The notes: generated from the sequence alone by a model not told the origin. Shown: positions 12,904 to 42,852, counted from the stretch's first letter. The stretch: DNA of 64,000 bases from Spirochaetales bacterium (GCA_017540815.1 JAFYAI010000036.1:3637-67636); one strand, 5' to 3'. Made by a program: numbers and translations.

Positions 12904-14400
12904 ATGAAACAAAATATGTTTTTCAAGACGATGTTTGTGATTATATGTGCTGCATTTATCGGCTGTCAGACCGAGACTACAGGCAGCGGCGAGCTGACGG
13001 AGACTGTGCAGGAGACAGCATATTATCACATTATCTTTCATTATAATATCACGGATCAGAGTGTCGATATAGCAGTGCCGACGACCGAGAACTTCGCTGT
13101 CCCGGACTGCACCGATGATCGTATCGGATTTGAGATGCCTGACGGCAGACCTTTCGTTGAGTGGAATGATTCACCTAACGGAAAGGGGACTTCCTATAAA
13201 GCAGGGGAGCTTTTCAACAAACAAAAGAAAGGCACTGTCACAACTCTGTATGCGATCTGGAAAGACGCAGACAATGAACCGTATGATGTTGAGTATGATC
13301 CTAACGGCGGTTCAGGTGAGATGAAGAGGAGCACATTGTTTATCGATCGTTCCAAGCGTCTGCCGAAATGCACATTCAAAGCACCGACGGGCAAGAGATT
13401 TGATTGCTGGAACACAAAATCAGACGGATCTGGTAAGTCATATAAGGACGAGCAGACTGTGACTAATCTTACTGCCAAAGGCAAGACGATTACACTCTAC
13501 GCACAGTGGAAGAACAAGGAGTATTACATAGTCAGGTTTAGTGATGAGCAGCTCGACACGCAGACTGATGATCTTACATTCGACAATGCCAAAGCAGTCA
13601 AACTGCTGCCGACTCTGACCAAATCAGGCTACGCATTCGGCGGATGGTATGACAGTACATCCGACAGCGGTGAACATGTGACGGACACGAACAGTTTCTC
13701 GGATGATGTTACTGTCTATGCCCGTTGGACGGCGAATACTTATACTGTTATATTCGACAAGGATGCAGCTGATGCAGTCGGTTCAATGGATGAACAGAAT
13801 ATGACCTATGGAGAGGGAGCGGCTCTGACTGCCAATGCTTACATAAGAGCCGGCTATCGCTTTCTCGGCTGGCATACTGAGTCCGGAGCATCATCGCCGA
13901 TGTATGCCAATATGCAGCCTGTTGTCAATCTGACATCAGAGGCAGACGGCACTGTGACGCTCTATGCAGTTTGGGAAGAAGCCGATACATATACGATTGT
14001 ATTCAATGCCAACGGCGGCAGCGGTGATATGGATCAGGTGATCTATGTCATCGATGAAGATACCGTTCTGCCGAAGTGTGCATTCAAAGCACCTGCCGGA
14101 CAGAGTTTCAGTCATTGGAATACCGCATACGACGACACCGGGACTTCATACAATAATATGCAGTCTGTGAATGGCATCGCAGAGAAAAATGAGACTGTAA
14201 CCTTGTATGCACAATGGATTGACAGAGCATTCTATATAGCATATCTTAACGATGAAGAACGGCACACTGAGACGGAGGATCTGACATTTGACAAAGTTCA
14301 CGATGTCGAGCTGCCTGTCCCGACCGAGATCGGCTGGTCGTTCCTCGGCTGGTATAAGGATGCAGAGTTCACAGATGGTCCGGTCAGCGGTTGGTTGGCA
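12904..14400 (+). repeat. Dispersed paralogous repeat, partner at about 18802-20300
   Basis: The 5' halves of the two Flg_new lipoprotein genes are about 80-85% identical at DNA level by eye, e.g. ...gtcgatatagcagtgccgacgac...ccggactgcaccgatga...cctgacggcagacctttc... in both. Confidence 0.6.
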
Positions 14401-15468
14401 GGAGATGTGATCGACGACATCACACTGTATGCACATTGGGAGCTTAAGACTATTACTTACACATTCGATCCTCATGGCGGCAGCTGGGGCAGCAGTACTG
14501 ACAGCAAAACAGTCAGCGGCAAGTTCGGCACAACTGTCGGTGATGTGCCTGCCAATCCGACGAGAGAGGGCTACACATTCTCGGGATGGGATATGCCGAT
14601 TCCAGATGTGTTCGGTGACAGCAATCTGACATTCACAGCCGGTTATCTTCCGTATACTTATACAGTAGTATTCGATAGGAATGGCGGTGTCGGAACAATG
14701 TCGAACCAAACAATGTCCTATGATGTGCCAAAAAACCTGACGGCAAATCAATTCTCCAGGACAAATTGGACATTCTGCGGATGGAATACTAAGAGCGACG
14801 GCTCAGGTGAGTTCTATGCCGATAATGCAAGCGTGTCCAATCTTACATCGACCAATGGGGCGACAGTCACGCTTTATGCACTGTGGTCATCGGCGGCTGT
14901 CAAGGATATCGGTTATTTCCGGTACTCCGACGGCAGCTACAGTACTCAATATATCAAAAACAAAACCATTGAAGGCATCGTATTTGAGGTCGGCACTAAA
15001 GTTAAAGTAGTGACTGCTGTTCGTGATTATGCAAAGTGGTGCGCCAAGGATACAGTGCAGAGTGCGACCAATATATCGACAAGCGACTCTGACGGCAGCG
15101 GCAACTGGGCAAAGGTGGCAAGTGCCTGCTCCTGTGCGAGTTGGTATCCGACATCAAGTGACAACGATGCTTTTTATGATGTCGGAGCAAGAGGCTCTAC
15201 AGGAGCATATCTGCCTGCGATAGAGGAACTACAGTCTGTGTATGATAATATAACAGCGATAAACAATGCTTTCAAAATCTGGTACGATGCTGTTCGGTTT
15301 ACTGATTCTATCGCAGGTTCGCTGCCGATTAATTATACATATTGGTCTTCGTCAGCAGTCAGTTCGTCAGTCAACTCCCGGTATCTCGACTTTAAAACAG
15401 GCAATCGAGGAACTGGCAAAAGATCCGAATATCATGATTGCTTCGGAGTCAAGGCATTCGGCAACTGA
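12904..15468 (+). CDS. Surface lipoprotein with multiple Listeria-Bacteroides (Flg_new) repeats and a C-terminal DUF1566 (Lcl C-terminal-like) domain
   Basis: Lipobox AAFIGC. Repeated G(Y/W)xFxGW...T(L/V)YA(Q/V/H)W units. C-terminal GAYLPAIEELQSVY motif typical of DUF1566. Paralog of ORF 18802-21297. Confidence 0.7.
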   Translation: MKQNMFFKTMFVIICAAFIGCQTETTGSGELTETVQETAYYHIIFHYNITDQSVDIAVPTTENFAVPDCTDDRIGFEMPDGRPFVEWNDSPNGKGTSYKAGELFNKQKKGTVTTLYAIWKDADNEPYDVEYDPNGGSGEMKRSTLFIDRSKRLPKCTFKAPTGKRFDCWNTKSDGSGKSYKDEQTVTNLTAKGKTITLYAQWKNKEYYIVRFSDEQLDTQTDDLTFDNAKAVKLLPTLTKSGYAFGGWYDSTSDSGEHVTDTNSFSDDVTVYARWTANTYTVIFDKDAADAVGSMDEQNMTYGEGAALTANAYIRAGYRFLGWHTESGASSPMYANMQPVVNLTSEADGTVTLYAVWEEADTYTIVFNANGGSGDMDQVIYVIDEDTVLPKCAFKAPAGQSFSHWNTAYDDTGTSYNNMQSVNGIAEKNETVTLYAQWIDRAFYIAYLNDEERHTETEDLTFDKVHDVELPVPTEIGWSFLGWYKDAEFTDGPVSGWLAGDVIDDITLYAHWELKTITYTFDPHGGSWGSSTDSKTVSGKFGTTVGDVPANPTREGYTFSGWDMPIPDVFGDSNLTFTAGYLPYTYTVVFDRNGGVGTMSNQTMSYDVPKNLTANQFSRTNWTFCGWNTKSDGSGEFYADNASVSNLTSTNGATVTLYALWSSAAVKDIGYFRYSDGSYSTQYIKNKTIEGIVFEVGTKVKVVTAVRDYAKWCAKDTVQSATNISTSDSDGSGNWAKVASACSCASWYPTSSDNDAFYDVGARGSTGAYLPAIEELQSVYDNITAINNAFKIWYDAVRFTDSIAGSLPINYTYWSSSAVSSSVNSRYLDFKTGNRGTGKRSEYHDCFGVKAFGN

Positions 15469-15473
15469 CAATG

Positions 15474-15582
15474 CAGACTGTGCAAAAAACTCTATAAGAT
15501 GTCATTGTCGGTCTTGAACCGACAATCTGATTTAATAGATTGCCGTATCGAGTACGGCAATGACATGTTTTTGCACAGTCTG
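15474..15582. other. 109-nt nested inverted-repeat element: 15-bp perfect outer stem enclosing two internal hairpins; candidate small RNA or REP-like element
   Basis: cagactgtgcaaaaa (15474-88) / tttttgcacagtctg (15568-82). Inner hairpins attgtcgg-tcttgaa-ccgacaat and attgccgta-tcgag-tacggcaat. Alternative pairing atgtcattg / caatgacat is possible. Confidence 0.35.
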
Positions 15583-15592
15583 AATGAGCCGC

Positions 15593-15632
15593 AAAAAAAT
15601 AAATCGCCCGTAAGGGCGATTTATTTTTTTGC
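15593..15632. terminator. Bidirectional rho-independent terminator between convergent genes
   Basis: aaatcgcccg taa gggcgattt with A-run upstream and T-run downstream. Confidence 0.8.
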
Positions 15633-15640
15633 ATTTACAA

Positions 15641-16885
15641 TTATTTACGCACCAGCAGAGCCAGCATCTCGGCATGATGAGTCTGCGGGAACATATCTGC
15701 CAGCACAAGATCCTGAACTTCGTAGGCTTCGGAGAGTGTCTGAATGTCGCGGGCCATTGTCTGCACTTTGCACGACGAGTAGATGATCTTCCGCGGAGCG
15801 ATGTCGAGAATAACCTGACGGGTTTTATCGTCGAGACCTTTGCGCGGCGGATCGATGATCACTACATCGGCTGTGCCCAGTGTATCGACAACATTCTCAA
15901 CAGGCGACTCGATGAACCTAACATTACTCTCGATGTTGTTGATCTGTATGTTGTGATTGGCATCGCGGACGGAGCTCTTGGCGATCTCAACTCCGATAGT
16001 CTCCTTCGCAAAATGGCTGACAAACAGCGTAATGAGTCCTATACCGCAGTACAGGTCGAATATTCGCTCCGACTTGTTTTTCTCCAGGAATGAGATGATC
16101 TTCTCAAGCCACAGCGGAACAACATAATCATTGACTTGGAAGAAACTGTCCTTGCTTATCTTGAACTTAATGCTCAGTCCTGCCGCATTGATCGTCTCGT
16201 AGACTTCTCTGTCCTGATATTTGTCATTCTTGATCCAATGCACAACCGTATCGCCGTCAAGCGTTGTGCGGACTTTGAAGTTCTGCTGAGGATACTCGCC
16301 GGCACGCACTGAAGCAAGTGCGTCATTAATGCCCTGCATACCGATGGCACATTTATCGACATTGACGATAAACCGTGTGTCCTTGCGGAAAAAACCGATG
16401 TGCTTATTCTTGCCGCAGAATGTCTTAGCCAGTCCGCACTTGAATGTCTCAGTATTGCGGTAGGCAAACTGCTGCGGAGAGCGAATTACTTCCGATACTT
16501 TGATCTCATTCTTACCGATATAGCGGAACACTTCCTCGGCGAGCGTTGTCTTCATAGCGATCTGCGTCTCGTAGTCAGTCATCTGATAGTCACAGCCGCC
16601 GCATTCTCCGAAATACTGACAGTGCGGAGTGATCCTCTTGTCCGACTGCTCGATAATCTCCAGTGGCTCTGCCATAGCATATTCGCTTGTTTCGCGGTAA
16701 ATGTTTGCCTTAACCAATTCACCGGGCAGCACATATCGCACGAAAATAGTCTTGCCTTCGCTGTCGTGAGCGATACACACACCGTCGTTGGCAGCTTTCT
16801 CTATACGAAGAGTTTCCTCACGCTTAACAGACTTGATTTTTCGCGGCTGGAGTGTTTTCTGTGATTCGTTATCGATAATATCCAT
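15641..16885 (-). CDS. rlmD: 23S rRNA (uracil-C5)-methyltransferase RlmD/RumA family (TRAM domain, Fe-S cluster, SAM-dependent methyltransferase)
   Basis: Cys cluster CQYFGECGGCDYQ. Class I SAM methyltransferase motifs (FDLYCGIGLITL, IIDPPRKG). Confidence 0.85.
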   Translation of the reverse strand: MDIIDNESQKTLQPRKIKSVKREETLRIEKAANDGVCIAHDSEGKTIFVRYVLPGELVKANIYRETSEYAMAEPLEIIEQSDKRITPHCQYFGECGGCDYQMTDYETQIAMKTTLAEEVFRYIGKNEIKVSEVIRSPQQFAYRNTETFKCGLAKTFCGKNKHIGFFRKDTRFIVNVDKCAIGMQGINDALASVRAGEYPQQNFKVRTTLDGDTVVHWIKNDKYQDREVYETINAAGLSIKFKISKDSFFQVNDYVVPLWLEKIISFLEKNKSERIFDLYCGIGLITLFVSHFAKETIGVEIAKSSVRDANHNIQINNIESNVRFIESPVENVVDTLGTADVVIIDPPRKGLDDKTRQVILDIAPRKIIYSSCKVQTMARDIQTLSEAYEVQDLVLADMFPQTHHAEMLALLVRK

Positions 16886-16989
16886 ATTTGTATCTCCAAA
16901 AAATTTGTCACACGGATTTGCTCAGCCATAACGGTCTTCGCCTTGTGGTCATTCCGAACTTGTTTCGGAATCTTATTCATTGTTCTGAG

Positions 16990-17072
16990 ATGCTGAAACA
17001 GCTGCGGCGTATACATCCGTGTCGCCGCTTGCACAGCCGACTTCCTGTCGGCAGTAGTTCAGCATGACATTC
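16990..17072. other. Nested stem-loop region (outer stem plus two GC hairpins) in the divergent intergenic region upstream of rlmD
   Basis: atgctgaa ... ttcagcat outer pairing. gcggcg-N13-cgccgc and gccgac-ttcct-gtcggc hairpins. Confidence 0.25.
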
Positions 17073-17151
17073 CGTCACAACCATTTGCTCTTAACCTATA
17101 TTATCATTAAATTTGAATATTAGCAAATAATATTTTCAAAAAATCTTCATT

Positions 17152-17182
17152 CTTCTTGACGAATTTTAGAGAAATGATATAA
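17152..17182 (+). promoter_or_regulatory. Sigma-70-type promoter
   Basis: ttgacg, 17-bp spacer, tataat immediately upstream of ORF 17186. Confidence 0.5.
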
Positions 17183-17185
17183 TAA

Positions 17186-17734
17186 ATGAAAAAGGCGGCA
17201 CAAATGTTTATCAATACAACAAGACTCAATTTTGTTAAGATGCAGACATTATTTTGGATAATTTTTCACGGTTTTTTTACATTTTTATTTGGAATGGCAT
17301 TGTTTGGCAGCATTATCGAAAAAGAATTTCTCAAAGAATTGGATTTTGTCGCTATTGTGATTGTCTGTTTGGCACTGGCCGGATATTTGCTATTCTGCAC
17401 TGTAAACAATCGCAGACGGCTGTCGATGGCTTTGCGGCTTGATGATGCTCTGCGGAATGACGACAACGGCATTATTACAATGCAGGAGCTGGCAAATGCT
17501 CTGAATTACAACGGTAATATTCAGAAGACAGTAGAATACCTAATGAAGAAAAACATTCTGATAAACTGCCGATTTGACCAGCAGGATCGCAATAAAATCG
17601 TCTGCCGTGATGTCGATATTGACCGCTCCGTAGACTTGCGAACGATAAACTGTCCTCACTGCGGCAATATTGTGCAGGGCAGGATGAATGTGATAGTGAA
17701 ATGCCCGATGTGCGGCATTGAGATTAAGATGTAA
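17186..17734 (+). CDS. Membrane protein with two TM helices and a C-terminal zinc-ribbon (CPHCG...CPMCG)
   Basis: Hydrophobic segments. Paired CxxC motifs at the C-terminus. No recognisable family. Confidence 0.4.
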   Translation: MKKAAQMFINTTRLNFVKMQTLFWIIFHGFFTFLFGMALFGSIIEKEFLKELDFVAIVIVCLALAGYLLFCTVNNRRRLSMALRLDDALRNDDNGIITMQELANALNYNGNIQKTVEYLMKKNILINCRFDQQDRNKIVCRDVDIDRSVDLRTINCPHCGNIVQGRMNVIVKCPMCGIEIKM

Positions 17735-17768
17735 TTGTTTTTTCTGCATATTACGGTGAGGTGTCATT

Positions 17769-18680
17769 ATGAAACAAAAGCTGAAACTTATCGTTATTAT
17801 TTTGATCGCGGCGTATGTGGTGGTGCATGTCCTGCATGTTGATGTCGGCGGCTTATGGGTGACGGGCAAGACCTTCGTAATGGATATGGCAGCAAAAGTG
17901 ATACCTGCTGTCCGGGGTAAGTTCGAGAATACAGACAGGCAGATAAGCGGCGGACAAGTCAAGAGCGGCACTGCCAAGACTCTGCATGATGCGTCGCAGA
18001 ATGCAGTTAAGCAGGCTTCGACATTTATCAGCAAGGCTAAGATTGGTTTCGTCAGAACTATGCGTAAGATCGGCATTAAGCCGCCTGCCGGCAGATATGT
18101 GCCTAAAACATATACACCTAAGAAAGAAGGCGGCGAAGCGGAGAAGAAGTCCAATATCGCAGTCTATGATAATATGAACATTACTCAATCATCGTCACTG
18201 CGACAGAATTTCATCAATTACAGTATGACTCTCCGTGGCATCCCGTATGTATGGGGCGGCACAACTCCTCAGCCGGGGCTTGACTGTTCGGGATTCGTCG
18301 GTTATGCAGCGAAGAACAGTATCGGTGTGCAGCTGCCGCGCACTGCCCGACAGATGTATACGGCGACTGTCCGCATTCCGACGAATGAGCTTGAGCCGGG
18401 CGATCTTGTATTCTTCCGCAGCTTTGGCAAAGTCAACCATGTCGGCATATATCTCGGCCGCTATCAGGGCGAAGGACCGATGCACGGACGGGAGCTGTTC
18501 ATCAATGCTGCCAGCGAAGGTCCAAGCACGGGAGTTATAGTCAGTGCCCTTGATGAGCCATATTGGCGGCGGCACTACAGTTCTGCAGGGCGATTCCTGC
18601 CGTCATCACACGATGCCGCCGAAGCATTAGCTGAGCGAAAAGCCGATCAGAAAGAAAAACAATCTGAACAAGACGAGTGA
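17769..18680 (+). CDS. Membrane-anchored NlpC/P60 family (C40) cell-wall peptidase
   Basis: YVWGGTTPQPGLDCSGFVGY ... VNHVGIYLG catalytic Cys/His signature of NlpC/P60. Confidence 0.8.
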   Translation: MKQKLKLIVIILIAAYVVVHVLHVDVGGLWVTGKTFVMDMAAKVIPAVRGKFENTDRQISGGQVKSGTAKTLHDASQNAVKQASTFISKAKIGFVRTMRKIGIKPPAGRYVPKTYTPKKEGGEAEKKSNIAVYDNMNITQSSSLRQNFINYSMTLRGIPYVWGGTTPQPGLDCSGFVGYAAKNSIGVQLPRTARQMYTATVRIPTNELEPGDLVFFRSFGKVNHVGIYLGRYQGEGPMHGRELFINAASEGPSTGVIVSALDEPYWRRHYSSAGRFLPSSHDAAEALAERKADQKEKQSEQDE

Positions 18681-18685
18681 TAACA

Positions 18686-18727
18686 AAAAGGATGAGATTT
18701 TCGTAAGAAAATCTCATCCTTTTTCCA
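18686..18727 (+). terminator. Rho-independent terminator
   Basis: aaaaaggatgagatttt cgtaag aaaatctcatccttttt. Confidence 0.8.
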
Positions 18728-18737
18728 AAAAATTCTC

Positions 18738-18767
18738 TTGACAAAATCGTTTTTCTTTTTTACAATT
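18738..18767 (+). promoter_or_regulatory. Sigma-70-type promoter (TTGACAAAATC... family)
   Basis: ttgaca, about 18-bp spacer, tacaat. Confidence 0.45.
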
Positions 18768-18801
18768 TTATGTCATTTTTTTATGATATAGGAGCGTAAA
18801 A

Positions 18802-21297
18802 ATGAAACAAATTGTATCATTAGTAATATATATCTTCATCGTGCTGTTAATAGGCTGTCAGACGGAGACCGGTGAGTCCGAGCCTGTCTCGTCAACGATG
18901 CAGACATCGTATTATCACATTGTATTCTATAATACTCTCACCGATGCAAGCGTCGATATAGCAGTGCCGACGACGCAGAACTTTACTTTGCCGGACTGCA
19001 CCGATGACCGTATCAGGTTTGAGATCCCTGACGGCAGACCTTTCATAGAATGGAATATCTCGCCTGATGGAATAGATACTCATTACAAAGCAGGAGATGT
19101 TTTCCCAAAACAGAAGAAGAACTCTGTTACAGTGTTGTATGCGATATTCAAAGAGCCGGCAGCTGTATTCTATTATGTAGAGTATAACATAAACGGCGGC
19201 ACAGGCGGCAGCATGACGAGATCGACATTCGCTGTCGGTAAGTCATATCAGCTGCCGAAATGCACTTTCAAAGCACCGACAGGCAAGCGGTTTGATAAGT
19301 GGACAACCAATGCCGACGGAACGGGCAAGTCATATACCGACGAGCAGTCAATGACCAATCTGGCGACTGCTGCCGGCAGTATAGTGACTCTGTATGCACA
19401 GTGGAAGGTTAAGACTGACTTGTATATCACATATCACGATCCGAAGAATGCGGATAACTCCGACAATCCGACAACATTCCTTAAGACTGATAATGTAACT
19501 CTTACAGGTCTTGCCGGCATCACGGGCTACACATTCGGCGGGTGGTATGACAATGAGACTTGTACCGGCTCTGCGATCACAGGGTGGAGTGCCGGAGATA
19601 AAGACGATGACATTGAGCTGTGGGCTAAGTGGACAGCCAATGAGTATGCCGTAACATTCAACAAGAATGCCGAAGATGCGGTCGGCACTATGGCGGCTCA
19701 GAATATGACTTATGATACAGAGACGGCACTGACTGCCAACGGTTACTCGCTGACAGGGCATCGTTTCCTCGGCTGGCATACTGACAAAGGTGCATCGTCG
19801 GCAAAATATACCAATGAACAAACAGTGAAAAATCTCACTGCGATTAATGGCGGCAGTGTGACGCTGTATGCGATCTGGGAAGAGGCTGATACTTATACGA
19901 TTGCGTTCGCTGCAAACGGCGGCACTCTTACGATGGACAGTGTAACGGTTGTCGTCGATGAGGACTATGTTCTGCCGAAGTGTGCATTCAAAGCACCGTT
20001 AGGTAAGATCTTCGAGAAATGGTCCGACGGTAAAGGTTCATTTTATGATAATATGGCAACTGTTCGTGGACTTGCCGAGAAGGATCAGACGATAACGCTG
20101 ACAGCACAGTGGAAAGACAAAGCCTTCTATGTGATTACACTGCACGATGAGCTTCATCCGAATACAGAGGACCTCACATTCGATGCGGGGGACTATCCTG
20201 CTCTGCCGACTCCGAGTGAGACGGGCTGGACATTCGACGGATGGTGGACAGCCGCTGACGGAGGCGAGGAGATAACATCGTGGACTACCAATGATGATAC
20301 AGAACTTTATGCTCATTGGACACATAACTTGATTAGCTACACATTCCTCCTGTATGGCGGTAAGTGGGATGATGACACCGATTTGCCTAAGACAGTCAGC
20401 GGATATTACGGTGAGGCTGTGAGCGTGCCTGCCGATCCGACTAGGGCAGGCTGGACTTTCGCCGGCTGGAACGGAGCGGTTGACGGGCGGCCAACAACAT
20501 TTGGTGAGAGTAGTCAGGCATTTGCTGCACAGTGGACTTTGCCTTATACTGTTGTCTTCAATGCTAACGGCGGAACCGGCAGTATGAGTAATCAGGATAT
20601 GGTTTACGGTGAGGCGGCACAGCTGTCTGCGAATGCTTTTACCAGATCGGGTTGGACATTCTATGGATGGGATACATCATCTGACGGCGGAGGCACATTA
20701 TATCAGGATCGGCAGAGTGTGTCCAATCTGACAGATAAAGCTAATGGAACTGTCAGACTGTATGCGTTATGGCAGACATCGACACCTGCTGTCGGGCATA
20801 TCTGCTATGATAACGGCGGCAGCAAGATCTACAGCGACAAATATCTGTCAGACAAGACGGTGTTGGGTGTTGTGTTTGCAGTCGGAACTAAGGTGAAGAT
20901 TATCTATCCCGATCAAGAAGATTCCTGTGCTTGGGCCGGCTCTTCTGACACAATCGCATGTACTAATGAGGATGACGGTTCGGTCAATACGAGCAAAGTT
21001 CCCACATCAGTTGCTTATTGGCCGTTTCATTGGGTATACGGTTGCGGAGACGGCTGGTATCTGCCTGCTATTAATGAGCTGATTGCGATTTATAATGTTG
21101 ACGATACGATAAATCCTGTCTTGACATTATTGCATAATGCCGGAATATCAGCTGCCGAATTTTACGGCAATTATTGGTCGTCTACTACTGACGCATCTCA
21201 ATCACATAAATACGCATATTATTTGCAGGGTGGTGGAAAAGGCACTGAGCTAAAAACGAGACAGAGTGCTAAAGTTCGTGCCGTGATGGCATTTTGA
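18802..21297 (+). CDS. Surface lipoprotein with Flg_new repeats and C-terminal DUF1566 domain (paralog of 12904-15468)
   Basis: Lipobox LLIGC. N-terminal about 100 aa about 60% identical to ORF 12904. GWYLPAINELIAIYN DUF1566-like motif. Confidence 0.7.
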   Translation: MKQIVSLVIYIFIVLLIGCQTETGESEPVSSTMQTSYYHIVFYNTLTDASVDIAVPTTQNFTLPDCTDDRIRFEIPDGRPFIEWNISPDGIDTHYKAGDVFPKQKKNSVTVLYAIFKEPAAVFYYVEYNINGGTGGSMTRSTFAVGKSYQLPKCTFKAPTGKRFDKWTTNADGTGKSYTDEQSMTNLATAAGSIVTLYAQWKVKTDLYITYHDPKNADNSDNPTTFLKTDNVTLTGLAGITGYTFGGWYDNETCTGSAITGWSAGDKDDDIELWAKWTANEYAVTFNKNAEDAVGTMAAQNMTYDTETALTANGYSLTGHRFLGWHTDKGASSAKYTNEQTVKNLTAINGGSVTLYAIWEEADTYTIAFAANGGTLTMDSVTVVVDEDYVLPKCAFKAPLGKIFEKWSDGKGSFYDNMATVRGLAEKDQTITLTAQWKDKAFYVITLHDELHPNTEDLTFDAGDYPALPTPSETGWTFDGWWTAADGGEEITSWTTNDDTELYAHWTHNLISYTFLLYGGKWDDDTDLPKTVSGYYGEAVSVPADPTRAGWTFAGWNGAVDGRPTTFGESSQAFAAQWTLPYTVVFNANGGTGSMSNQDMVYGEAAQLSANAFTRSGWTFYGWDTSSDGGGTLYQDRQSVSNLTDKANGTVRLYALWQTSTPAVGHICYDNGGSKIYSDKYLSDKTVLGVVFAVGTKVKIIYPDQEDSCAWAGSSDTIACTNEDDGSVNTSKVPTSVAYWPFHWVYGCGDGWYLPAINELIAIYNVDDTINPVLTLLHNAGISAAEFYGNYWSSTTDASQSHKYAYYLQGGGKGTELKTRQSAKVRAVMAF

Positions 21298-21316
21298 TTA
21301 AGATAATTATAATAAC

Positions 21317-21355
21317 ACAAACCCCGATACAAAAGTATCGGGGTTTGTGTTATTA
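21317..21355. terminator. Terminator hairpin
   Basis: aacacaaaccccgatac aaaa gtatcggggtttgtgtt. Confidence 0.75.
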
Positions 21356-21370
21356 TCTGATGCTGCATTA

Positions 21371-28373: not shown

Positions 28374-29324
28374 TTACAGCTTTATCGCCATCGCGATAGT
28401 AACTTCTTTTTTCTCCCAATCGTATCCGCCGCCGATAGATGACCGCTCGAAGAAAGCAAGCCTCTGACCTGTAGTCTTGCGGTAAACAGATGCAATCCTA
28501 GATGCAAAACAAAACGGAATGGAACAAAATGGAGCTATGATACATCCTGTTATTAACAAAGGAATACCTGCAATTCCCGCTACATATGATATTCCCATCC
28601 ACATCATTTCACATACAATTCCAGAAAATGCAAAAGTTCCTCCAACAACTGCCAACGCAATACCTCCTCCGACATGCTTTTTGTAATAATATCGCATATC
28701 ATCTTCACTGTCAGGATCAATGCCCCATTTGTCGATGATATATGTGTCTCGGAATATCTCTTCCTTTCTCGTCATTCTGCCTCTCTTACTGCTGCGGCTG
28801 CGAGTCGGGCGATAGTCGTCATCGTAAGCATCCTCTTCCGATCCTGCAGCCACGCCGTGTTCATCTTTAGTGATCTGAGCGGCGATCGTCTTTATAGCGG
28901 CTTCAAGTTTGATGTCTGTGTCGCCGTTTGCCTGTTTGGCATATTTGAGCGTTGCAGTTTTGATGTCCATTCCTTTGACAGATATGACATTCTTGTTGCC
29001 GAATCTGAAAATAGTTCCGAAGAATACCATTTCCGCACCTGACATTTTACCTAACTCGACAGCTGATCCTTCATCAAACAGTTCACCCCGTTGGAATTTC
29101 ATCTCTTTCAGAGCGGCATCAAGTTTGCTTCGCTCTACAACAACGAAATTATTGGAATTAACCATCTCAACTGTAAAAACTTCAGTCAGATATGTCAGCA
29201 CAGCTGGGCTGATCTTCTCTTCCGATGAAAACGGCAGCACTGCAATACGCGTCTGTCCCTGTGCCGATACGCTTATAACTACAGCCATGATCATAATGAC
29301 TGCATACAATGTTTTTTTGTTCAT
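28374..29324 (-). CDS. Secreted protein with CsgG/LpoB-like N-terminal domain and C-terminal polytopic Gly-rich membrane segment
   Basis: AGGAG RBS before ATG 29324 (MNKKTLYAVIMIMAVVISVSAQ signal). IAVLPFSS...FVVVERSKLDAALKE...GAEMVFFGTI pattern. Paralog of 49367-50296. Confidence 0.5.
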   Translation of the reverse strand: MNKKTLYAVIMIMAVVISVSAQGQTRIAVLPFSSEEKISPAVLTYLTEVFTVEMVNSNNFVVVERSKLDAALKEMKFQRGELFDEGSAVELGKMSGAEMVFFGTIFRFGNKNVISVKGMDIKTATLKYAKQANGDTDIKLEAAIKTIAAQITKDEHGVAAGSEEDAYDDDYRPTRSRSSKRGRMTRKEEIFRDTYIIDKWGIDPDSEDDMRYYYKKHVGGGIALAVVGGTFAFSGIVCEMMWMGISYVAGIAGIPLLITGCIIAPFCSIPFCFASRIASVYRKTTGQRLAFFERSSIGGGYDWEKKEVTIAMAIKL

Positions 29325-38543: not shown

Positions 38544-38572
38544 TTGACAAAATCCGCTGTGTGGTGTATAAT
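38544..38572 (+). promoter_or_regulatory. Sigma-70-type promoter (TTGACAAAATCC... family) for the caspase-gene islet
   Basis: ttgaca, 17 bp, tataat. Confidence 0.55.
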
Positions 38573-38766: not shown

Positions 38767-38790
38767 TTGAGTCTACCCATGGAGCGAGCC

Positions 38791-40923
38791 ATGCAAAAAA
38801 GCGTTTGTCTGTATTTATTTCTATTCATTTCATTTACTGTTTCTTCATTATTATATGCAGAGCCTCGTCACGCATTGCTGATTGCGAATGGGGAGTATAA
38901 GCATTTTGCGGGATTAGCCAATCCGGTTGGAGAGGCAGATATGCTTGCAAAATCTTTGCGGCAACTTGGATTTGAAGTGACTATTAAACAGAATCTCTCA
39001 ATGGAACAAATGAAAGATGCTTTGTTTATATTTGAAGAGACAGTAAAACAATCAGGCGGTATAGCTTTTTTCCACTATGGTGGTCATGCTGTACAGGTCA
39101 AAGGTGAGAATTATCTAATCCCTACAGATGCTGATATTCCTGACGAACGTCGTGTAGATACAAGAGCATTGAATCTTGATGAAGTAATGGATAGTATGTG
39201 CGGCGAGATAAATATTGTAATCCTTGATGCATGCCGAAATAATCCATTGCCGTCAGGTGAAGGACGAAGTGCAAGCCGAGGTCTTTTGCCTATTACACAT
39301 AAACCTCAAAATTCCGTTATTGTTTATTCTGCTCAAGCAGGAGCTGTAGCTCAAGACGGAGTGTTTACACCTATAATGGCAGATAAAATATTAGAGCCAA
39401 AATCATTTTCCAAGATAATTCGTGATGTTCGTGTGGCTGTTAAAGAGAAAACAGTAAATATGCAAATTCCCGGTTGCTATGATGATTCAGATAATGATAT
39501 ATTTCTTGCTGGTATTGTAATGTCAGATGAGCAGAAGAAACTGGAAAATAGTAGAAAAGAATATGATGATCTTGAAAAAGAAATTGCTGATATTAAGGCG
39601 AGAATAAATGAAAAACGAAATGAAAAAGAGAACGAGTTGTCAATGCTTGAACTGCAAAAGAAAGAGGCGGCTGCAAAACAAAAGAAAATCGAACTAGAAC
39701 AACAACAAGAGTTGGAGAATAGACGGCAGGCAATGATCAAGCGTCAAAAAGAAATTCAAAGTGAATATGAGCAAAACCAACAGGAACAAGAATTACAGTT
39801 TATTAAAGTTCAGCAGGCAAATGCAGAAAAACAGAAACTTTTACAACAACTTCAAAAAGATGCAATCTCGATTGATGATATTATGGATAGTAATGATAAA
39901 CTTCAGAATGCGATAAATGAAGTGGCGAGTAATTATAATAATGCAAGGGACAAAGCATTAAGTCAGATTACCTCATTTTATAAACAAAAATTTGATGAAA
40001 TTGTGAATATGAAAAAAGAAAAATGGGAACGCCCCGAAGAATTTACAGAAAGGCAAAATGTTGAACGAACTACATATAGTGATAATGAGAAAGAAGAGTT
40101 GGAGCAAATTAATCAGCGATATAATAATGAAATTAAAGAAAGTACGAAAGAACTGAAACGACAGCTGAAAGAGAACGCTCAAAAAATAATCACTGTAACA
40201 AAAGATGTCAATGTGTTATTCGGAGAATATAATGATGTTGGGGAGTTTTTTCCTGCTTCTGTTTCCTATAATGGTAAATATGTCAGTATAGATGATTCGT
40301 TTGAGATAAGCATTAAAAGTGATAATGTAGCAGAACGGCGTGGCAAAGGAATAGAAATAGAAAATAAAATAAAATCCAATGGCTATGTCGGTGAGATTGA
40401 GCAGTGTTTGTCTGACGGCAAAGCGATGATTAGGAAATATCGTATTATAGACATATCAGATAATTCTGTATTGTTTGAGAAAGAAGTAAATAAAATCGGT
40501 ACAAATGTGCAAATTCAAAAGAAATATGAAGCGGCTGAGAAATATAAAAAACATACCTACGCTTACGGCAGTCTTATAGGCATTGGCAGTGGAATTGGTG
40601 CTGTGTCGCTTACACTTATACCTGTTGGAGCAGCTAATATGGCAGACTGCTATGAGCGTCGGCTTGATTACGGAGTTGGAGTTAGTGTAGCTATTCTTGG
40701 TGTCGGTTTTGGAACGGCTGTTGTATCGGCTATTATGCTTAGTGTGACTAGTGTTATTTGGTATCGTGATATTTCTGCGAATGGTATTAGATGGCAAATA
40801 AAGCGGTATAATTCATCAAGAATGACAGTGAAACAGAAAACCATAGCCACATTATCGACACTCGCTCCCAATGTTCTGTGTGGTGATGGTATTATAGAAG
40901 TAGGAATGAGGATTAGATTATAA
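38791..40923 (+). CDS. Secreted, membrane-anchored caspase-domain (peptidase C14) protein. Signal peptide and caspase domain, then about 150-aa coiled coil, a globular region, and two C-terminal TM helices
   Basis: HALLIANGEYKH...FFHYGGHAVQ (catalytic His) ... IVILDACRNNP (catalytic Cys). KKLENSRKEYDDLEKEIADIKARINEKRNEKENEL... heptad-rich. Hydrophobic C-terminus. Confidence 0.8.
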   Translation: MQKSVCLYLFLFISFTVSSLLYAEPRHALLIANGEYKHFAGLANPVGEADMLAKSLRQLGFEVTIKQNLSMEQMKDALFIFEETVKQSGGIAFFHYGGHAVQVKGENYLIPTDADIPDERRVDTRALNLDEVMDSMCGEINIVILDACRNNPLPSGEGRSASRGLLPITHKPQNSVIVYSAQAGAVAQDGVFTPIMADKILEPKSFSKIIRDVRVAVKEKTVNMQIPGCYDDSDNDIFLAGIVMSDEQKKLENSRKEYDDLEKEIADIKARINEKRNEKENELSMLELQKKEAAAKQKKIELEQQQELENRRQAMIKRQKEIQSEYEQNQQEQELQFIKVQQANAEKQKLLQQLQKDAISIDDIMDSNDKLQNAINEVASNYNNARDKALSQITSFYKQKFDEIVNMKKEKWERPEEFTERQNVERTTYSDNEKEELEQINQRYNNEIKESTKELKRQLKENAQKIITVTKDVNVLFGEYNDVGEFFPASVSYNGKYVSIDDSFEISIKSDNVAERRGKGIEIENKIKSNGYVGEIEQCLSDGKAMIRKYRIIDISDNSVLFEKEVNKIGTNVQIQKKYEAAEKYKKHTYAYGSLIGIGSGIGAVSLTLIPVGAANMADCYERRLDYGVGVSVAILGVGFGTAVVSAIMLSVTSVIWYRDISANGIRWQIKRYNSSRMTVKQKTIATLSTLAPNVLCGDGIIEVGMRIRL

Positions 40924-40971: not shown

Positions 40972-42852
40972 ATGAAGAAGATTTGTTTGTTATTATTAAT
41001 TACGACTATTACTTTGTCAAGTTGTGTTTATGAAGGATTGAAATCGTTGTATGGTGATGAATGGATTGAAGAGCATACAACAGAAACTGGTGATACTGTT
41101 AATGATGGAGAGAAACAAACACCAATATTGATTATTAAAGATGACACAACTGACACAAGTTCTGAGATTTCTTATACTATTATATTTGATGCTAATGGCG
41201 GCAGTGGTGAGATGAATCCATTAACACTGCATAGTGGGGAAGCAATAACCTTACCGCTGTGTTCATTTATTGCACCAAGGGGGAAGGAATTTTCCTGTTG
41301 GCATGCTTCGGATAATAATTATGCGTCTTATTTTGGTAATGGGACTGTCGTAAAAAACTTGTTATCGGAAGATGGGGCGGTAGTTATATTGTCTGCTCAG
41401 TGGGCTAATTTGCCACAATATACTATCTCTTACTATAATACAAAAAATGCTTATAATGCTAATCCAGTCACATTTGATGAATCAGAATCTATTACTTTAC
41501 AAAGTTTGTCTATGACAGGATATGATTTTCTAGGTTGGTATGATGCTGAGAATGGCGGTACGCAAGTTACAGGCTGGGATGCAGGATGTAAAACATCTGA
41601 TGTTACATTATATGCACATTGTAATGCTCATACATATACAGTTATATATTACGGCAACGGCGGTATTGGGCAAACCAAGAGACAAACCGTATCCTACGGA
41701 GAGAGTTTTGCCCTGCGTGAGAATGGCTTTACAAGAGATGGTTATACATTCATTGGTTGGTGTACCAACAGTAATGGTGGCGGCACTGGATATAGTGCTG
41801 GACAGACTGTATCAAATTTGACTGCTGAAGACGGCGGAATTGTGGAGTTATATGCACTGTGGGAAGAAGATACGACAGATAAATGGAATATTAATAATGC
41901 AGGAAATATTACGCTAAACGGAGAAGAATTTCCGTTTACAAGTTTTGTGCAGGTTATATCTGAACCTGTGACGGTTGTGGGGAGTGAGCCTAATTGTTCT
42001 TATAATATTCCTGTTTCATATTTACCGACTGAACAGTTAAAAGGTGTTTTTGTTGCTGGCACTTCAACAACAATTAATCCATATTGTGTTGGGCGATATA
42101 CAGTGACGGATAAATTATATAAGACAGTAATGCATATAGAAAATGAATCTGATACAGAGATAAGCAAAATATTTCCGGTTATTAAAGTAAATTGGTACGA
42201 TGCTATTACATTTTGTAATAAACTTAGCATATTGGTTGGAAAGCAGACTTGTTATTCTGTAAAAGGGATTGCAGATTGGTTATCTATAAACTATTCAGAA
42301 ATTCCACATACAGGAGATGAAAGTTGGGATGTTAATGTTAATCCTAACGCAAACGGTTATAGATTACCAACTGAAGCAGAATGGGAGTTCGCTGCACGAG
42401 GTGGAGACCCAACAATAGAGGATTGGGATTATTATTATGCAGGAATAAAAACTAAAGGAGATTCTTTGTATCTTTGTAATGTTAAAGGTTCTAGTGGGAG
42501 GTCTATACTAGATCACTTATTATATAAGGTCGGTAGATCAGCTATAGAATCAATAGAATATACATCAATAGGAGGTACTAATGTCGATTATTATAAATGT
42601 TCCAAAGCAACCTCATTGGAGTCTGTTGGATTGAGACTCCCAAATAGATTAGGTATATATGACATGTCAGGTAATGTTGGAGAATGGTGTTGGGATAAGT
42701 ATGATGATAGTAATAAAAGAATATTGCGTGGAGGTAATTATTACGGCTGCCCTTCGACTTACAGTTGTTCTGTTTATTATCATGGATATTACTATGATTG
42801 TTCACGCGGAGAAGGTTGTAGTTTTAGGCTTGCTTATTCTAAGAGAGAGTAA
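40972..42852 (+). CDS. Lipoprotein with Flg_new repeats and C-terminal FGE-sulfatase (SUMF1/formylglycine-generating-enzyme-like) domain
   Basis: Lipobox LSSC. GYDFLGWYD...TLYAHC and GYTFIGWCT...ELYALW repeats. VNWYDAITFCNKLS...GYRLPTEAEWEFAARGG...GIYDMSGNVGEWCWD...ILRGGNY is the FGE-sulfatase signature. Confidence 0.75.
   Translation: MKKICLLLLITTITLSSCVYEGLKSLYGDEWIEEHTTETGDTVNDGEKQTPILIIKDDTTDTSSEISYTIIFDANGGSGEMNPLTLHSGEAITLPLCSFIAPRGKEFSCWHASDNNYASYFGNGTVVKNLLSEDGAVVILSAQWANLPQYTISYYNTKNAYNANPVTFDESESITLQSLSMTGYDFLGWYDAENGGTQVTGWDAGCKTSDVTLYAHCNAHTYTVIYYGNGGIGQTKRQTVSYGESFALRENGFTRDGYTFIGWCTNSNGGGTGYSAGQTVSNLTAEDGGIVELYALWEEDTTDKWNINNAGNITLNGEEFPFTSFVQVISEPVTVVGSEPNCSYNIPVSYLPTEQLKGVFVAGTSTTINPYCVGRYTVTDKLYKTVMHIENESDTEISKIFPVIKVNWYDAITFCNKLSILVGKQTCYSVKGIADWLSINYSEIPHTGDESWDVNVNPNANGYRLPTEAEWEFAARGGDPTIEDWDYYYAGIKTKGDSLYLCNVKGSSGRSILDHLLYKVGRSAIESIEYTSIGGTNVDYYKCSKATSLESVGLRLPNRLGIYDMSGNVGEWCWDKYDDSNKRILRGGNYYGCPSTYSCSVYYHGYYYDCSRGEGCSFRLAYSKRE

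What the first reader, a model, noticed from the sequence alone, without database searches (positions are those of the whole stretch)
12904..21297. Three-member family of Flg_new-repeat lipoproteins with a swapped C-terminal 'head' domain (DUF1566 x2, FGE-sulfatase x1)
ORFs 12904-15468 and 18802-21297 are recent paralogs; their 5' halves are about 80-85% identical at the DNA level. Both end in a DUF1566 (Legionella Lcl-C-terminal-like) domain with the (W/A)YLPxI(E/N)EL motif. ORF 40972-42852 shares the lipobox and Listeria-Bacteroides repeat stalk but carries an FGE-sulfatase-like domain instead. This looks like a modular surface protein family: a conserved repeat stalk with a variable ligand-binding tip, possibly adhesins or receptor decoys. 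Each copy is monocistronic, with its own promoter and terminator. The duplicated DNA could also support recombination or inversion between copies.
Basis: partly seen in the sequence, partly recalled or inferred. Interest (0 to 1): 0.55.

Follow-up and report, generated by a model that had tools for sequence, protein, structure and literature searches.

The report
Stalked lectin-tipped spirochete surface lipoproteins
Three genes of a ruminant-gut spirochete encode lipid-anchored surface proteins built as a repeat stalk carrying a lectin-like binding head; this is a common, already annotated design, and the two similar copies are old duplicates, not recent ones.

Summary
The three ORFs are real, at the stated coordinates. 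All have a lipobox Cys and strong Flg_new (InlB B-repeat) stalks: 8 repeat units in A and B, 3 in C. C's FGE-sulfatase head is solid, and its nearest solved structure is TvpA of Treponema denticola. The DUF1566/Lcl_C call for A and B falls below Pfam's threshold on each protein alone. A profile of the head family does support it, hitting Lcl-CTD (8Q4E) and the Bacteroides pilus-tip protein 4EPS.

The "recent paralogs, 80-85% DNA identity" claim is wrong. A and B share 48% protein identity, 67.6% DNA identity over the best 1.1 kb and 58% overall. Their longest identical run is 29 nt. Both are conserved in the same places in two other strains. C shares only repeat-level similarity with A and B and lies in a low-GC island, apparently co-transcribed with a caspase-domain gene. 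Only B is clearly monocistronic. A and B are direct repeats, so they cannot cause an inversion.

New points: A is a recombination mosaic whose head tip differs sharply between strains, while B is stable. C ends in a variable-region-like stretch typical of diversity-generating retroelement (DGR) targets. No template repeat or reverse transcriptase was found in the window, the roughly 10 kb read beyond each window end, or the flanks of two relatives.

Verdict: an ordinary member of a widespread architecture.

The parts
12904..15468 (+). Gene A, 854-aa lipoprotein: signal peptide and lipobox, 8 Flg_new-type repeat units, Lcl_C/DUF1566-like head
   Evidence: ORF; Pfam. Orthologs of 854 and 858 aa sit in the same synteny in L002 and L001.
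12904..12966 (+). Signal peptide of A ending in lipobox FIGC (Cys21 codon at 12964-12966)
   Evidence: Read directly from the sequence. Lipidation itself was not tested.
13021..14886 (+). Stalk of A: 8 repeat units, each ending in an L-Y-A-x-W-type motif (residues 119, 202, 275, 357, 438, 512, 581, 661)
   Evidence: Pfam Flg_new with 7 matched stretches, E 5.4e-49; motif positions.
14887..15465 (+). Head of A (residues 662-854): a small beta N-terminal part plus an Lcl_C/DUF1566-like domain with AYLPAIEEL and YWSS...CFGVKAF
   Evidence: Lcl_C 22.2 bits, below the gathering score. The family profile hits 4EPS and 8Q4E. 57 cluster representatives hit at E<=1e-3.
15124..15465 (+). Strain-variable distal half of the A head (codons 741-854)
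   Evidence: Against L001 and L002: dS 0.18, dN 0.19, with indels of 1 and 3 codons. Codons 41-662 against L001 give dS 0.005.
15472..15590 (.). Palindromic insert of about 115 nt after the A stop codon, present only in this strain (side feature)
   Evidence: Absent from L001 and L002. Fold z-score -14.6 for the 175-nt stretch 15466-15640, which also contains the downstream terminator hairpin. Single copy.
15591..15632 (.). 19-bp hairpin followed by a T-run between A and the convergent tRNA-U5-methyltransferase-like gene; likely a bidirectional terminator
   Evidence: Sequence; fold. Conserved in L001 and L002.
18738..18766 (+). Promoter-like site for B (TTGACA-17-TACAAT, 11 of 12 matches), preceded by a hairpin and T-run at about 18687-18726 that ends the NlpC/P60 gene
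   Evidence: sequence. This is a consensus match only.
18802..21297 (+). Gene B, 831-aa lipoprotein, full-length collinear paralog of A (48% aa identity)
   Evidence: Its 99%-identical homolog P0001 is annotated 'InlB B-repeat-containing protein [Spirochaetales bacterium]'.
18907..20772 (+). Stalk of B (Flg_new repeats, collinear with the 8 units of A)
   Evidence: Pfam Flg_new with 6 matched stretches, E 2.9e-43; collinear alignment.
20773..21294 (+). Head of B (residues 658-831) with WYLPAINEL and YWSS...VRAVMAF
   Evidence: Lcl_C 28.8 bits, E 1.6e-6. A single-sequence PDB search hits 4EPS at E 0.005. Conserved between strains, dN <= 0.014.
21309..21356 (.). 20-bp palindromic hairpin between B and the convergent sigma-70 gene; terminator-like
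   Evidence: sequence.
38544..38572 (+). Perfect-consensus promoter-like site upstream of the caspase-domain gene; probably also drives C
   Evidence: 12 of 12 matches. No promoter-like or terminator-like site lies in the 40924-40971 gap.
38767..40923 (+). Upstream neighbour of C: Peptidase_C14 (caspase) domain protein with a coiled coil and C-terminal transmembrane helices
   Evidence: Pfam E 4.3e-28; sequence.
40972..42852 (+). Gene C, 626-aa lipoprotein (lipobox LSSC, Cys18): 3 Flg_new repeats plus a TvpA-like FGE-sulfatase head
   Evidence: Identical to MBR6199212.1. Lies in a low-GC region.
41869..42849 (+). Head of C (residues 300-626): all-beta extension plus an FGE-type C-type-lectin fold
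   Evidence: AF2 pLDDT 74.4, pTM 0.82. Foldseek best hit 2Y3C (TvpA), E 3e-17, TM 0.72. phmmer to 2Y3C gives E 6e-26.
42736..42825 (+). Variable-region-like stretch of C (codons 589-618, NYYGCPSTYSCSVYYHGYYYDCSRGEGCSF)
   Evidence: 25 of 30 codons are NNY against 54% gene-wide, Fisher p 5e-4. Adenine content is 22% against 32%. It aligns to the hypervariable RGG...GFR segment of the family.

Best explanation
A, B and C are surface-exposed lipoproteins of an uncultured ruminant-gut spirochete (Spirochaetales, Treponema-like).

How they are built and probably work:
- Each is exported, and acylated at the lipobox cysteine (inferred from the sequence).
- A chain of Flg_new / InlB-B-repeat domains forms a stalk: 8 units in A and B, 3 in C.
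- The stalk holds out a C-terminal binding domain. By homology to proteins of known structure this domain has a C-type-lectin-like fold. In A and B it is the Lcl_C/DUF1566 type, as in Legionella Lcl and Bacteroides type V pilus tip proteins. In C it is the FGE-sulfatase type closest to T. denticola TvpA.
- The most likely job is non-enzymatic binding of a glycan or protein ligand on feed particles, host surfaces or other microbes. In other words, they are adhesins or receptors.

How they arose:
- A and B are old tandem-region paralogs kept at fixed positions in the species.
- C arrived separately inside a low-GC island and is probably co-transcribed with a caspase-domain membrane protein.
- Between strains, A changes by homologous recombination that imports divergent segments. 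The largest covers the distal half of its head. B stays conserved.

The domain content, homology and strain comparisons are shown here. Surface exposure, ligand binding and the stalk function are inferred.
For: - ORFs, lipoboxes and Shine-Dalgarno-like AGGAG sequences are present.
- Flg_new is strong in all three.
- C head: PF03781 at 82 bits; phmmer to TvpA 2Y3C E 6e-26; AF2 model (pTM 0.82) best matches 2Y3C at TM 0.72, E 3e-17, ahead of true FGEs.
- A/B head: 26 of 27 family members hit Lcl_C; the family profile hits 4EPS at 7.7e-9 and Lcl-CTD 8Q4E at 3.3e-7.
- Lcl-CTD is a C-type-lectin-like GAG-binding head on a stalk (PMC11162425). 4EPS is a type V pilus tip-like protein (bioRxiv 10.1101/2024.11.15.621889). 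TvpA has no FGE activity and is thought to bind ligands (PMC5758913).
- The architecture is common. Thousands of Flg_new proteins carry varied partner domains, many of them PF09479 plus PF03781, and many come from Spirochaetales or Treponema. Relatives of the head sit mostly on Flg_new stalks.
- Old paralogy: 48% aa, 58-68% nt, with conserved synteny in two other strains.
- A is a mosaic and B is stable.
- C lies in a 33-37% GC stretch, against 45-48% for most of the remaining window. It follows the caspase gene after 48 nt with no terminator.
Against: - No experiment or expression data bears on localisation or binding.
- The Lcl_C score of A and B is below Pfam's threshold.
- The AF2 model of the B head was poor (pLDDT 60.6) and gave no meaningful fold match. 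Its C-type-lectin fold therefore rests on profile homology and on the literature.
- hhalign found no link between the two head families.
- C's head carries cysteines near the positions of the FGE catalytic pair, so an enzymatic or metal-binding role is not formally excluded.
- C's tail looks like a DGR variable region, which would make 'static adhesin' incomplete.
Confidence: 0.62

Rival explanations
1. C is, or was, a target of a diversity-generating retroelement (DGR). On this reading its last 30 or so variable codons were written by adenine-mutagenic retrohoming from a template repeat located elsewhere in the genome (a remote target). Alternatively the retroelement has since been lost, leaving a relic target, as described for T. 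denticola.
For: - The closest solved structure is the DGR variable protein TvpA, including the all-beta N-terminal extension noted for TvpA-type domains (PMC7159879).
- Codons 589-618 sit exactly where FGE-type variable regions lie. They are 25 of 30 NNY (p 5e-4), adenine-poor and rich in Y, C, S, G, H and D.
- The same segment is hypervariable across the family.
- T. denticola has up to 7 FGE-type lipoprotein targets. Some lie far from the RT/TR and some are in strains lacking RT and TR (PMC4891356).
Against: - No template repeat was found in the window or in any fetched locus.
- No reverse transcriptase was found among 33 ORFs scanned in the window or in the gene calls reaching about 10 kb beyond each window end.
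- No GC-rich element or hairpin follows the stretch.
- The three other assemblies that include the tail are identical to the window there, and every copy found is the same strain, so no variation could be observed.
- The tail of a second FGE-type protein from the same sample shows no DNA similarity, so there is no shared template.
Confidence: 0.3
2. The hypervariable distal half of the A head is also produced by a targeted diversification mechanism rather than by ordinary recombination. That mechanism would be a DGR acting on a CLec2/DUF1566-type variable region, or cassette-style gene conversion.
For: - Differences between strains fall in tight multi-nucleotide clusters separated by perfectly conserved runs.
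- They coincide with the YWSS...F..G.....K....V.C segment, which is the variable region in DUF1566-type DGR targets (PMC5758913).
- dN is about equal to dS there.
Against: - The changes include third-codon positions, synonymous transitions and indels of 1 and 3 codons.
- A template with adenine at every variable site would often generate in-frame stop codons (my reading).
- There is no NNY bias.
- dS rises in step with dN (0.18 against 0.005 in the stalk), and the divergent tract runs on into the intergenic insert. This is the pattern expected for import of a divergent allele.
- No donor copy was found in any fetched sequence.
Confidence: 0.08
3. The C head is an enzyme. It would be either a formylglycine-generating enzyme or another SUMF1/EgtB/PvdO-type oxidase, as NCBI names some relatives, tethered on the cell surface.
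For: - PF03781 membership.
- Structural matches to FGE, EgtB, PvdO and OvsA at E 1e-5 to 1e-8.
- Two cysteines (C593, C599) lie near the position of the FGE Cys pair.
Against: - The best matches are the non-catalytic TvpA and then CarF.
- Sequence matches to true FGEs cover only about 20-30 residues around the RLPTEAEWE motif.
- The Cys spacing (C-x5-C) differs from that of FGE (C-x4-C, from my own knowledge).
- Those cysteines sit in the hypervariable segment, where relatives have a single Cys.
- TvpA lacks FGE activity (PMC5758913).
Confidence: 0.06
4. A and B are recent duplicates whose shared DNA drives recombination or inversion, and A, B and C form one three-member family made by swapping head domains.
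For: - A and B are collinear over their full length.
- One 150-nt window near the 5' end reaches 81% identity.
Against: - Overall nt identity is 58%, and third-position identity at conserved residues is 55%. The longest identical run is 29 nt.
- A-B protein identity is 50.7-51.1% for every pairing of A and B from the three strains, so there has been no recent exchange.
- Direct orientation excludes inversion.
- C has no significant DNA similarity to A or B, and its GC content differs.
Confidence: 0.03

Closest known systems
Treponema denticola TvpA (PDB 2Y3C), the FGE-type C-type-lectin variable protein of a DGR
   Same: - Spirochete lipoprotein with an FGE-sulfatase-type C-type-lectin head preceded by an all-beta extension.
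- Best sequence match (E 6e-26) and best structural match (TM 0.72) for the C head.
- The C-terminal segment has a variable-region-like composition.
   Different: - C carries a three-repeat Flg_new stalk that TvpA lacks.
- No template repeat or reverse transcriptase was found near C, and no allelic variation was observed.
- C has an extra insertion of about 50 residues, modelled at low confidence (head residues 195-247).
Legionella pneumophila Lcl (collagen-like stalk plus DUF1566 C-terminal domain, PDB 8Q4E)
   Same: - A 'lollipop' design: an elongated repeat stalk presenting a DUF1566/Lcl_C head that binds host glycosaminoglycans (PMC11162425).
- The A/B head family profile hits Lcl-CTD at E 3.3e-7, with the W-x-LP...EL and YWSS...VRAVRAF motifs aligned.
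   Different: - The stalk here is made of Flg_new domains, not a collagen triple helix, so nothing implies trimerisation.
- The anchor is a lipobox Cys, not an N-terminal helix.
- The A/B head has an extra N-terminal beta segment and a longer helical insert.
- The individual Pfam scores are below threshold.
Bacteroides ovatus BovFim1C (PDB 4EPS) and DGR-diversified type V pilus tip adhesins
   Same: - Best PDB hit of the A/B head family (E 7.7e-9). It covers both the small N-terminal 'VGD..Y.DGS...IGIV' piece and the lectin-like C-terminal domain.
- These are lipoprotein precursors with an adhesive tip role.
   Different: - There are no FimA-like pilin domains or pilus operon here. The head sits on a Flg_new stalk in a stand-alone gene.
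- No DGR was found.
Generic 'InlB B-repeat-containing proteins' (PF09479/TIGR02543 with varied partner domains)
   Same: This is exactly the annotation the near-identical database entries carry. Flg_new arrays fused to FGE-sulfatase, Lcl_C, LRR_5, transglutaminase, NlpC/P60, SLH and other domains are abundant.
   Different: These are not internalins. A, B and C have no LRR domain and no LPXTG or GW anchoring, because the organism is a diderm spirochete and the anchor is a lipid.

Membership tests
Flg_new / Listeria-Bacteroides repeat (PF09479, TIGR02543) | Score at or above the curated threshold of the family HMM, in several tandem copies | tested here: met
   164.6, 146.3 and 89.1 bits against a cutoff of 27, with 7, 6 and 3 stretches. 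TIGR02543 is also above its cutoff in all three.
Lcl_C / DUF1566 (PF07603) | Score at or above Pfam's gathering threshold (34.9 bits) | tested here: not met
   A scores 17.6 bits (22.2 for the head alone) and B 28.8 bits. The precomputed hits on the orthologs are marked weak or faint.
Lcl_C / DUF1566 (PF07603) | Profile-level homology to the solved namesake domain, with conserved core motifs (W-x-LP-x-x-x-EL; YWSS; V-R-x-V-R-x-F) | tested here: met
   The family profile (27 heads) hits 8Q4E Lcl-CTD at E 3.3e-7 with the motifs aligned. 26 of 27 relatives match PF07603, best 9.4e-13. The motifs are visible in A and B; in A the final motif is degenerate (CFGVKAF).
Lcl_C / DUF1566 (PF07603) | C-type-lectin-like fold of the head | tested here: inconclusive
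   The AF2 model of the B head reached only pLDDT 60.6 from a 7-sequence alignment, and Foldseek gave only noise. The fold is inferred from PMC11162425.
FGE-sulfatase (PF03781) | HMM score at or above threshold, and the FGE-type fold | tested here: met
   82.4 bits against a cutoff of 23.3. The AF2 model (pTM 0.82) matches 2Y3C, CarF, FGE, EgtB and PvdO with probability 1.00.
Catalytic formylglycine-generating enzymes | Conserved catalytic Cys pair / Cu(I) site and full-length similarity to active FGEs | tested here: inconclusive
   Sequence matches to FGEs cover only about 20-30 residues. Two Cys are present but with different spacing, inside a hypervariable segment.
DGR variable protein (TvpA-like target) | [quoted passage not shown] | tested here: met
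   TvpA is the best structural and sequence match. The NNY-rich, adenine-poor stretch is at codons 589-618.
DGR variable protein (TvpA-like target) | A cognate template repeat differing from the variable region at adenine positions | tested here: not met
   No similar sequence was found in the 64-kb window or in the 48 fetched loci. The rest of the genome could not be searched, because it is absent from genome contigs and metagenome contigs.
DGR variable protein (TvpA-like target) | A DGR-type reverse transcriptase in the genome | tested here: inconclusive
   None was found among 33 window ORFs scanned with Pfam or in the gene calls for the flanks. About 30 kb of the 104-kb scaffold and all other scaffolds remain unseen.
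DGR variable protein (TvpA-like target) | Allelic variation confined to template-adenine positions | not testable with these tools
   All other copies of C are 99.99-100% identical in DNA, which means the same strain.
Bacterial lipoprotein | Signal peptide with a lipobox and invariant Cys | tested here: met
   FIGC, LIGC and LSSC occur at residues 18-21, 16-19 and 15-18, each after a Lys-containing N-region and a hydrophobic core. The Phe at position -3 in A is atypical for E. coli rules; that it is tolerated in spirochetes is my own knowledge. Acylation was not tested.
Internalins (InlA/InlB/InlH) | N-terminal LRR domain plus inter-repeat region | tested here: not met
   No LRR family hit was found. 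The NCBIfam internalin models match only through the B-repeat, at 34-40 bits against cutoffs of 1050-1600.

The most novel reading that the evidence does not exclude
C, and possibly the fast-changing head of A, may be serviced in trans by a diversity-generating retroelement located elsewhere in this genome. In that case one rumen spirochete would display stalked Flg_new lipoproteins tipped with both classes of DGR-type lectin domain: FGE/CLec1 and DUF1566/CLec2. C would be wired to a caspase-domain membrane protein in a two-gene unit, giving a surface 'variable receptor plus protease' module.
Probability: 0.1. Interest if true: 0.5.

Novelty: new member of a known kind. Interest (0 to 1): 0.25.

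Why it matters
These are probably among the main adhesive surface molecules of an uncultured ruminant-gut spirochete. Knowing that their tips are lectin-fold domains of the Lcl/pilus-tip and TvpA types gives concrete candidates for ligand screening, such as glycan arrays or plant-fibre and mucin binding.

The strain comparison shows that selection or recombination acts on the tip of A but not of B. That is the kind of contrast expected if A faces a changing ligand, phage or host immune pressure.

None of this changes current understanding. The architecture is widespread and already carries a generic annotation. The only route to higher interest is a demonstration that C is an active DGR target linked to the neighbouring caspase-domain protein.

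Tried and rejected
- A word-indexed homolog search with the B head alone returned nothing, not even the 99%-identical P0001. That search was wasted.
- AF2 of the B head from a 7-sequence alignment was poor, and its Foldseek search gave only noise.
- hhalign of the A/B head family against the C head family gave probability <1%. The shared-superfamily idea therefore rests on the literature, not on my test.
- Template-repeat searches all found nothing: low-stringency BLASTN of the three 3' ends against the window and of the A and C tails against all loci. Alignment of C's tail with the tail of P0123 from the same sample showed no similarity. Direct-repeat scans around relatives and a hairpin search downstream of C were also negative.
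- Reverse-transcriptase hunt: Pfam on 33 window ORFs and gene calls about 10 kb beyond each window end found none. Loci around P0123 and P0014 had none either.
- The genome contigs and metagenome-contig scans with C found only relatives of 35% identity or less over any substantial alignment, and not this species.
- An apparent 132-nt insertion in C in L003 is a scaffold gap of Ns.
- I considered gene conversion from B, or from other repeats, as the source of the divergent patch in A of L002. The patch has no better match elsewhere, so I rejected it.
- Rfam on 12.5-21.8 kb gave only sub-threshold hairpin matches.
- The literature search for 'HbP1' was uninformative. The PDB code search resolved 8Q4E as Lcl-CTD.

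Full report
OBSERVATION

Each starts with a short Lys-containing N-region and a hydrophobic core, followed by a lipobox: FIGC, LIGC and LSSC, with Cys at residues 21, 19 and 18. Each is preceded by an AGGAG ribosome-binding site.

Pfam finds Flg_new (the Listeria-Bacteroides / InlB B repeat) very strongly in all three, at E 5e-49, 3e-43 and 2e-25. Counting the L-Y-A-x-W-type motif that closes each unit gives 8 units in A, the same 8 collinear units in B, and 3 in C. A six-frame phmmer search shows that no other member is encoded in the 64-kb window.

THE HEADS

C's head is a secure FGE-sulfatase domain, at 82.4 bits against a cutoff of 23.3.
- Its closest solved relative by sequence is 2Y3C (E 6e-26). 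This is TvpA, the variable protein of the Treponema denticola diversity-generating retroelement.
- An AlphaFold model built on 15 sequences (pLDDT 74.4, pTM 0.82) again matches TvpA best (Foldseek E 3e-17, TM 0.72). CarF comes next, then FGE paralogs, PorK, EgtB and PvdO.

- The scores are 17.6 bits for A (22.2 for the head alone) and 28.8 bits for B, against a gathering score of 34.9.
- An exhaustive HMMER search with the A head found 57 cluster representatives.
- In an alignment of 27 such heads, 26 hit PF07603, the best at 9e-13.
- The profile of that alignment hits two solved structures. One is 4EPS (E 7.7e-9), the Bacteroides ovatus type V pilus tip-like protein BovFim1C (bioRxiv 10.1101/2024.11.15.621889). 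The other is 8Q4E (E 3.3e-7), the Legionella Lcl C-terminal domain itself (PMC11162425).

I therefore accept the assignment at the family level and record that the per-protein threshold is not met.

The Lcl paper describes that domain as C-type-lectin-like and as the GAG-binding knob of a 'lollipop' adhesin. FGE-type domains are a recognised subclass of the same fold. By the literature, then, the two 'swapped' heads are variants of one fold. I could not show this myself. hhalign between the two head families gave probability <1%. The AF2 model of the B head was too poor to search with (pLDDT 60.6).

A AND B ARE NOT RECENT DUPLICATES

A and B are collinear over their full length but only 48% identical in protein.
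- BLASTN gives 67.6% identity over nt 110-1190 and nothing substantial beyond that.
- A codon-aware alignment gives 58% overall and 50-68% per 300 nt in the 5' half. A single 150-nt window reaches 81%, and the longest identical run is 29 nt. Third-position identity at conserved residues is only 55%.
- Near-identical genes were found in two other assemblies: a Spirochaetales MAG, GCA_017529645.1 (L001), and an ENA metagenome contig (L002).
- Both show the same order: ATP-grasp/FMN_dh gene, A, a convergent tRNA-U5-methyltransferase-like gene, a 176-aa ORF, NlpC/P60, B, a convergent sigma-70 gene, and an LRR protein.
- A-B identity is 50.7-51.1% for every pairing of A and B from the three strains. 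The duplication is therefore far older than the strains, and there is no sign of A-B gene conversion.
- A and B are direct repeats. Recombination between them would delete the DNA in between, not invert it.

C IS A SEPARATE ACQUISITION

C resembles A and B only through the generic repeats (about 35% aa) and has no significant DNA similarity to them. It lies in a 33-37% GC stretch (about 38-46 kb), while most of the remaining window is 41-49%.

TRANSCRIPTION UNITS

Only B looks monocistronic. A hairpin with a T-run ends the NlpC/P60 gene. A TTGACA-17-TACAAT site sits at 18738-18766, and a 20-bp palindromic hairpin follows the stop codon.

A begins 43 nt after the upstream ORF, with only a weak promoter-like match and no terminator in between. 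It does end at a strong hairpin at 15591-15632.

C begins 48 nt after a Peptidase_C14 (caspase-domain) protein that has a coiled coil and C-terminal transmembrane helices. That gene has a perfect 12/12 promoter-like site at 38544-38572. No terminator-like site lies between it and C, or after C. These are consensus matches only.

STRAIN COMPARISON

A diverges faster than its surroundings. Nucleotide identity to L001 and L002 is 97.0% and 94.6% for A, against 99.4% and 98.2% for the flanks.

Between the window and L002:

| Gene | dN | dN/dS |
|---|---|---|
| A | 0.048 | 0.47 |
| B | 0.014 | 0.25 |
| Neighbours | 0-0.010 | 0-0.26 |

The divergence in A is mosaic.
- Against L001, the stalk (codons 41-662) is almost identical (dS 0.005).
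- The first 40 codons differ (dS 0.11, dN 0.09).
- The last 114 codons differ strongly (dS 0.18, dN 0.19), with indels of 1 and 3 codons.
- The divergent tract runs on into a palindromic insert of about 115 nt after the stop codon, which only this strain has.
- L002 has its own divergent patch in one stalk repeat, with no donor elsewhere in the locus.

The parallel rise of dS and dN, the indels and the third-position changes indicate import of divergent alleles by homologous recombination, with relaxed or diversifying selection on the head tip. The changed residues do coincide with the YWSS...F..G.....K segment, which is the variable region in DUF1566-type DGR targets. I therefore keep targeted diversification as a low-probability rival. 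B's head is essentially invariant.

THE DGR LEAD FOR C

The two head types found here are the two main DGR target domain classes: FGE-sulfatase/CLec1, as in TvpA, and DUF1566/CLec2, as in Legionella LdtA (PMC5758913).

C's last 30 codons before FRLA (42736-42825, NYYGCPSTYSCSVYYHGYYYDCSRGEGCSF) have several features of a variable region.
- 25 of 30 codons are NNY, against 54% for the whole gene (Fisher p 5e-4). This is the highest such window in the gene.
- They are adenine-poor, at 22% against 32%.
- They align with the hypervariable RGG...GFR segment of the family.
- In T. denticola, targets are FGE-type and often lipoproteins. They can lie far from the RT/TR, and they persist in strains that have lost the RT and TR (PMC4891356).

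Against the lead:
- No template repeat was found.
- No reverse transcriptase was found among 33 window ORFs or in the roughly 10 kb read beyond each window end.
- No hairpin follows the stretch.
- Every other copy of C that I could find is the same strain, at 99.99-100% DNA identity.
- The organism is absent from the genome and JGI metagenome collections.

The window maps to positions 5985-69984 of a 104,031-bp scaffold from a ruminant gastrointestinal metagenome. About 30 kb of that scaffold, and the rest of the genome, remain unseen. I put 'C is or was a DGR target' at about 0.3.

HOW COMMON THE DESIGN IS

The 99%-identical homolog of B and the exact database match of C are already annotated 'InlB B-repeat-containing protein [Spirochaetales bacterium]'.

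Thousands of Flg_new proteins exist with varied partner domains. Partners include FGE-sulfatase, LRR_5, transglutaminase, NlpC/P60, SLH and Big_2. Many combine PF09479 with PF03781, and many come from Spirochaetales or Treponema.

Of ten relatives of the A/B head that I scanned:
- eight carry Flg_new repeats;
- two have three Lcl_C domains in tandem;
- one has Lcl_C and FGE-sulfatase in the same chain.

The same metagenome sample also holds two further proteins of this kind on other scaffolds: P0014, with an A/B-type head, and P0123, with an FGE head. The modular idea is right, but it is a known and widespread pattern.

VERDICT

The finding is partly confirmed and ordinary. These are stalked, lectin-tipped surface lipoproteins, most likely adhesins. 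They are new members of a known kind.

Three modest points of added value emerge:
- the mosaic, fast-changing head of A contrasted with the stable B;
- the TvpA-like, variable-region-like tail of C;
- C's apparent pairing with a caspase-domain gene in a low-GC island.

Noticed in passing
window 15472-15590: A near-perfect palindromic element of about 115 nt, with 15-nt terminal inverted repeats (CAGACTGTGCAAAAA / TTTTTGCACAGTCTG), sits right after the stop codon of A. It is absent from the two other strains. It is single-copy in the window and in all fetched loci, and it has no Rfam match. It could be a MITE-like insertion or part of the imported recombinant tract.
   Followed up: partly
window ~38000-46000: A low-GC island (33-37% GC) holds a caspase-domain (Peptidase_C14) coiled-coil membrane protein with a perfect promoter-like site. 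Gene C follows directly downstream, then a 231-aa unknown ORF and a PD-(D/E)XK/YhgA-like transposase-like ORF. HicAB and YafQ/ParE-like toxin-antitoxin pairs lie just upstream. Caspase plus FGE-type lectin domains recur in described conflict systems (PMC7159879). No vWA/MoxR or STAND partner turned up among the ORFs scanned.
   Followed up: partly
L048:10001-12388 and L005:10001-12592 (same metagenome sample as the window): Two further Flg_new lipoproteins come from sample ERZ28653461. P0014 (795 aa) has an A/B-type head whose tail is rich in Y, N, S and D. P0123 (863 aa) has an FGE head and follows an OmpA-family gene inside a polysaccharide-synthesis locus. If they belong to the same genome, the family has more than three members.
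   Followed up: partly
P0247, P0236, P0243 (database relatives): One relative carries two Lcl_C domains plus an FGE-sulfatase domain in a single chain. Two others carry three tandem Lcl_C domains. The two lectin-type heads are therefore combined as well as exchanged.
   Followed up: no
window 17-6181 (extends left of the window; L020:2997-9920): This ORF is part of a 2307-aa protein with alpha-amylase, CBM48 and isoamylase-C domains plus four CHB_HEX_C/Fn3_assoc repeats. A second giant of the same kind (more than 1594 aa) precedes it. Together they look like a large surface starch- or glycogen-degrading apparatus.
   Followed up: no
window 10623-12860: A 745-aa fusion of an ATP-grasp ligase with an FMN-dependent dehydrogenase (FMN_dh/IMPDH-like) lies directly upstream of A and is possibly co-transcribed with it.
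   Followed up: no
window 36559-37719 (-) versus 36943-37842 (+): The long minus-strand ORF in the mechanical list is probably spurious. Gene calls in the identical contig L023 place a prephenate-dehydrogenase-like gene on the + strand there.
   Followed up: no
window ~50000-53000 and 28374-29384: A second low-GC patch (32% GC) contains a CsgG/LpoB-like lipoprotein and two ORFs with no family hit. Another CsgG-like lipoprotein lies at 28374-29384, and a HipA toxin gene at 26792-28027.
   Followed up: no
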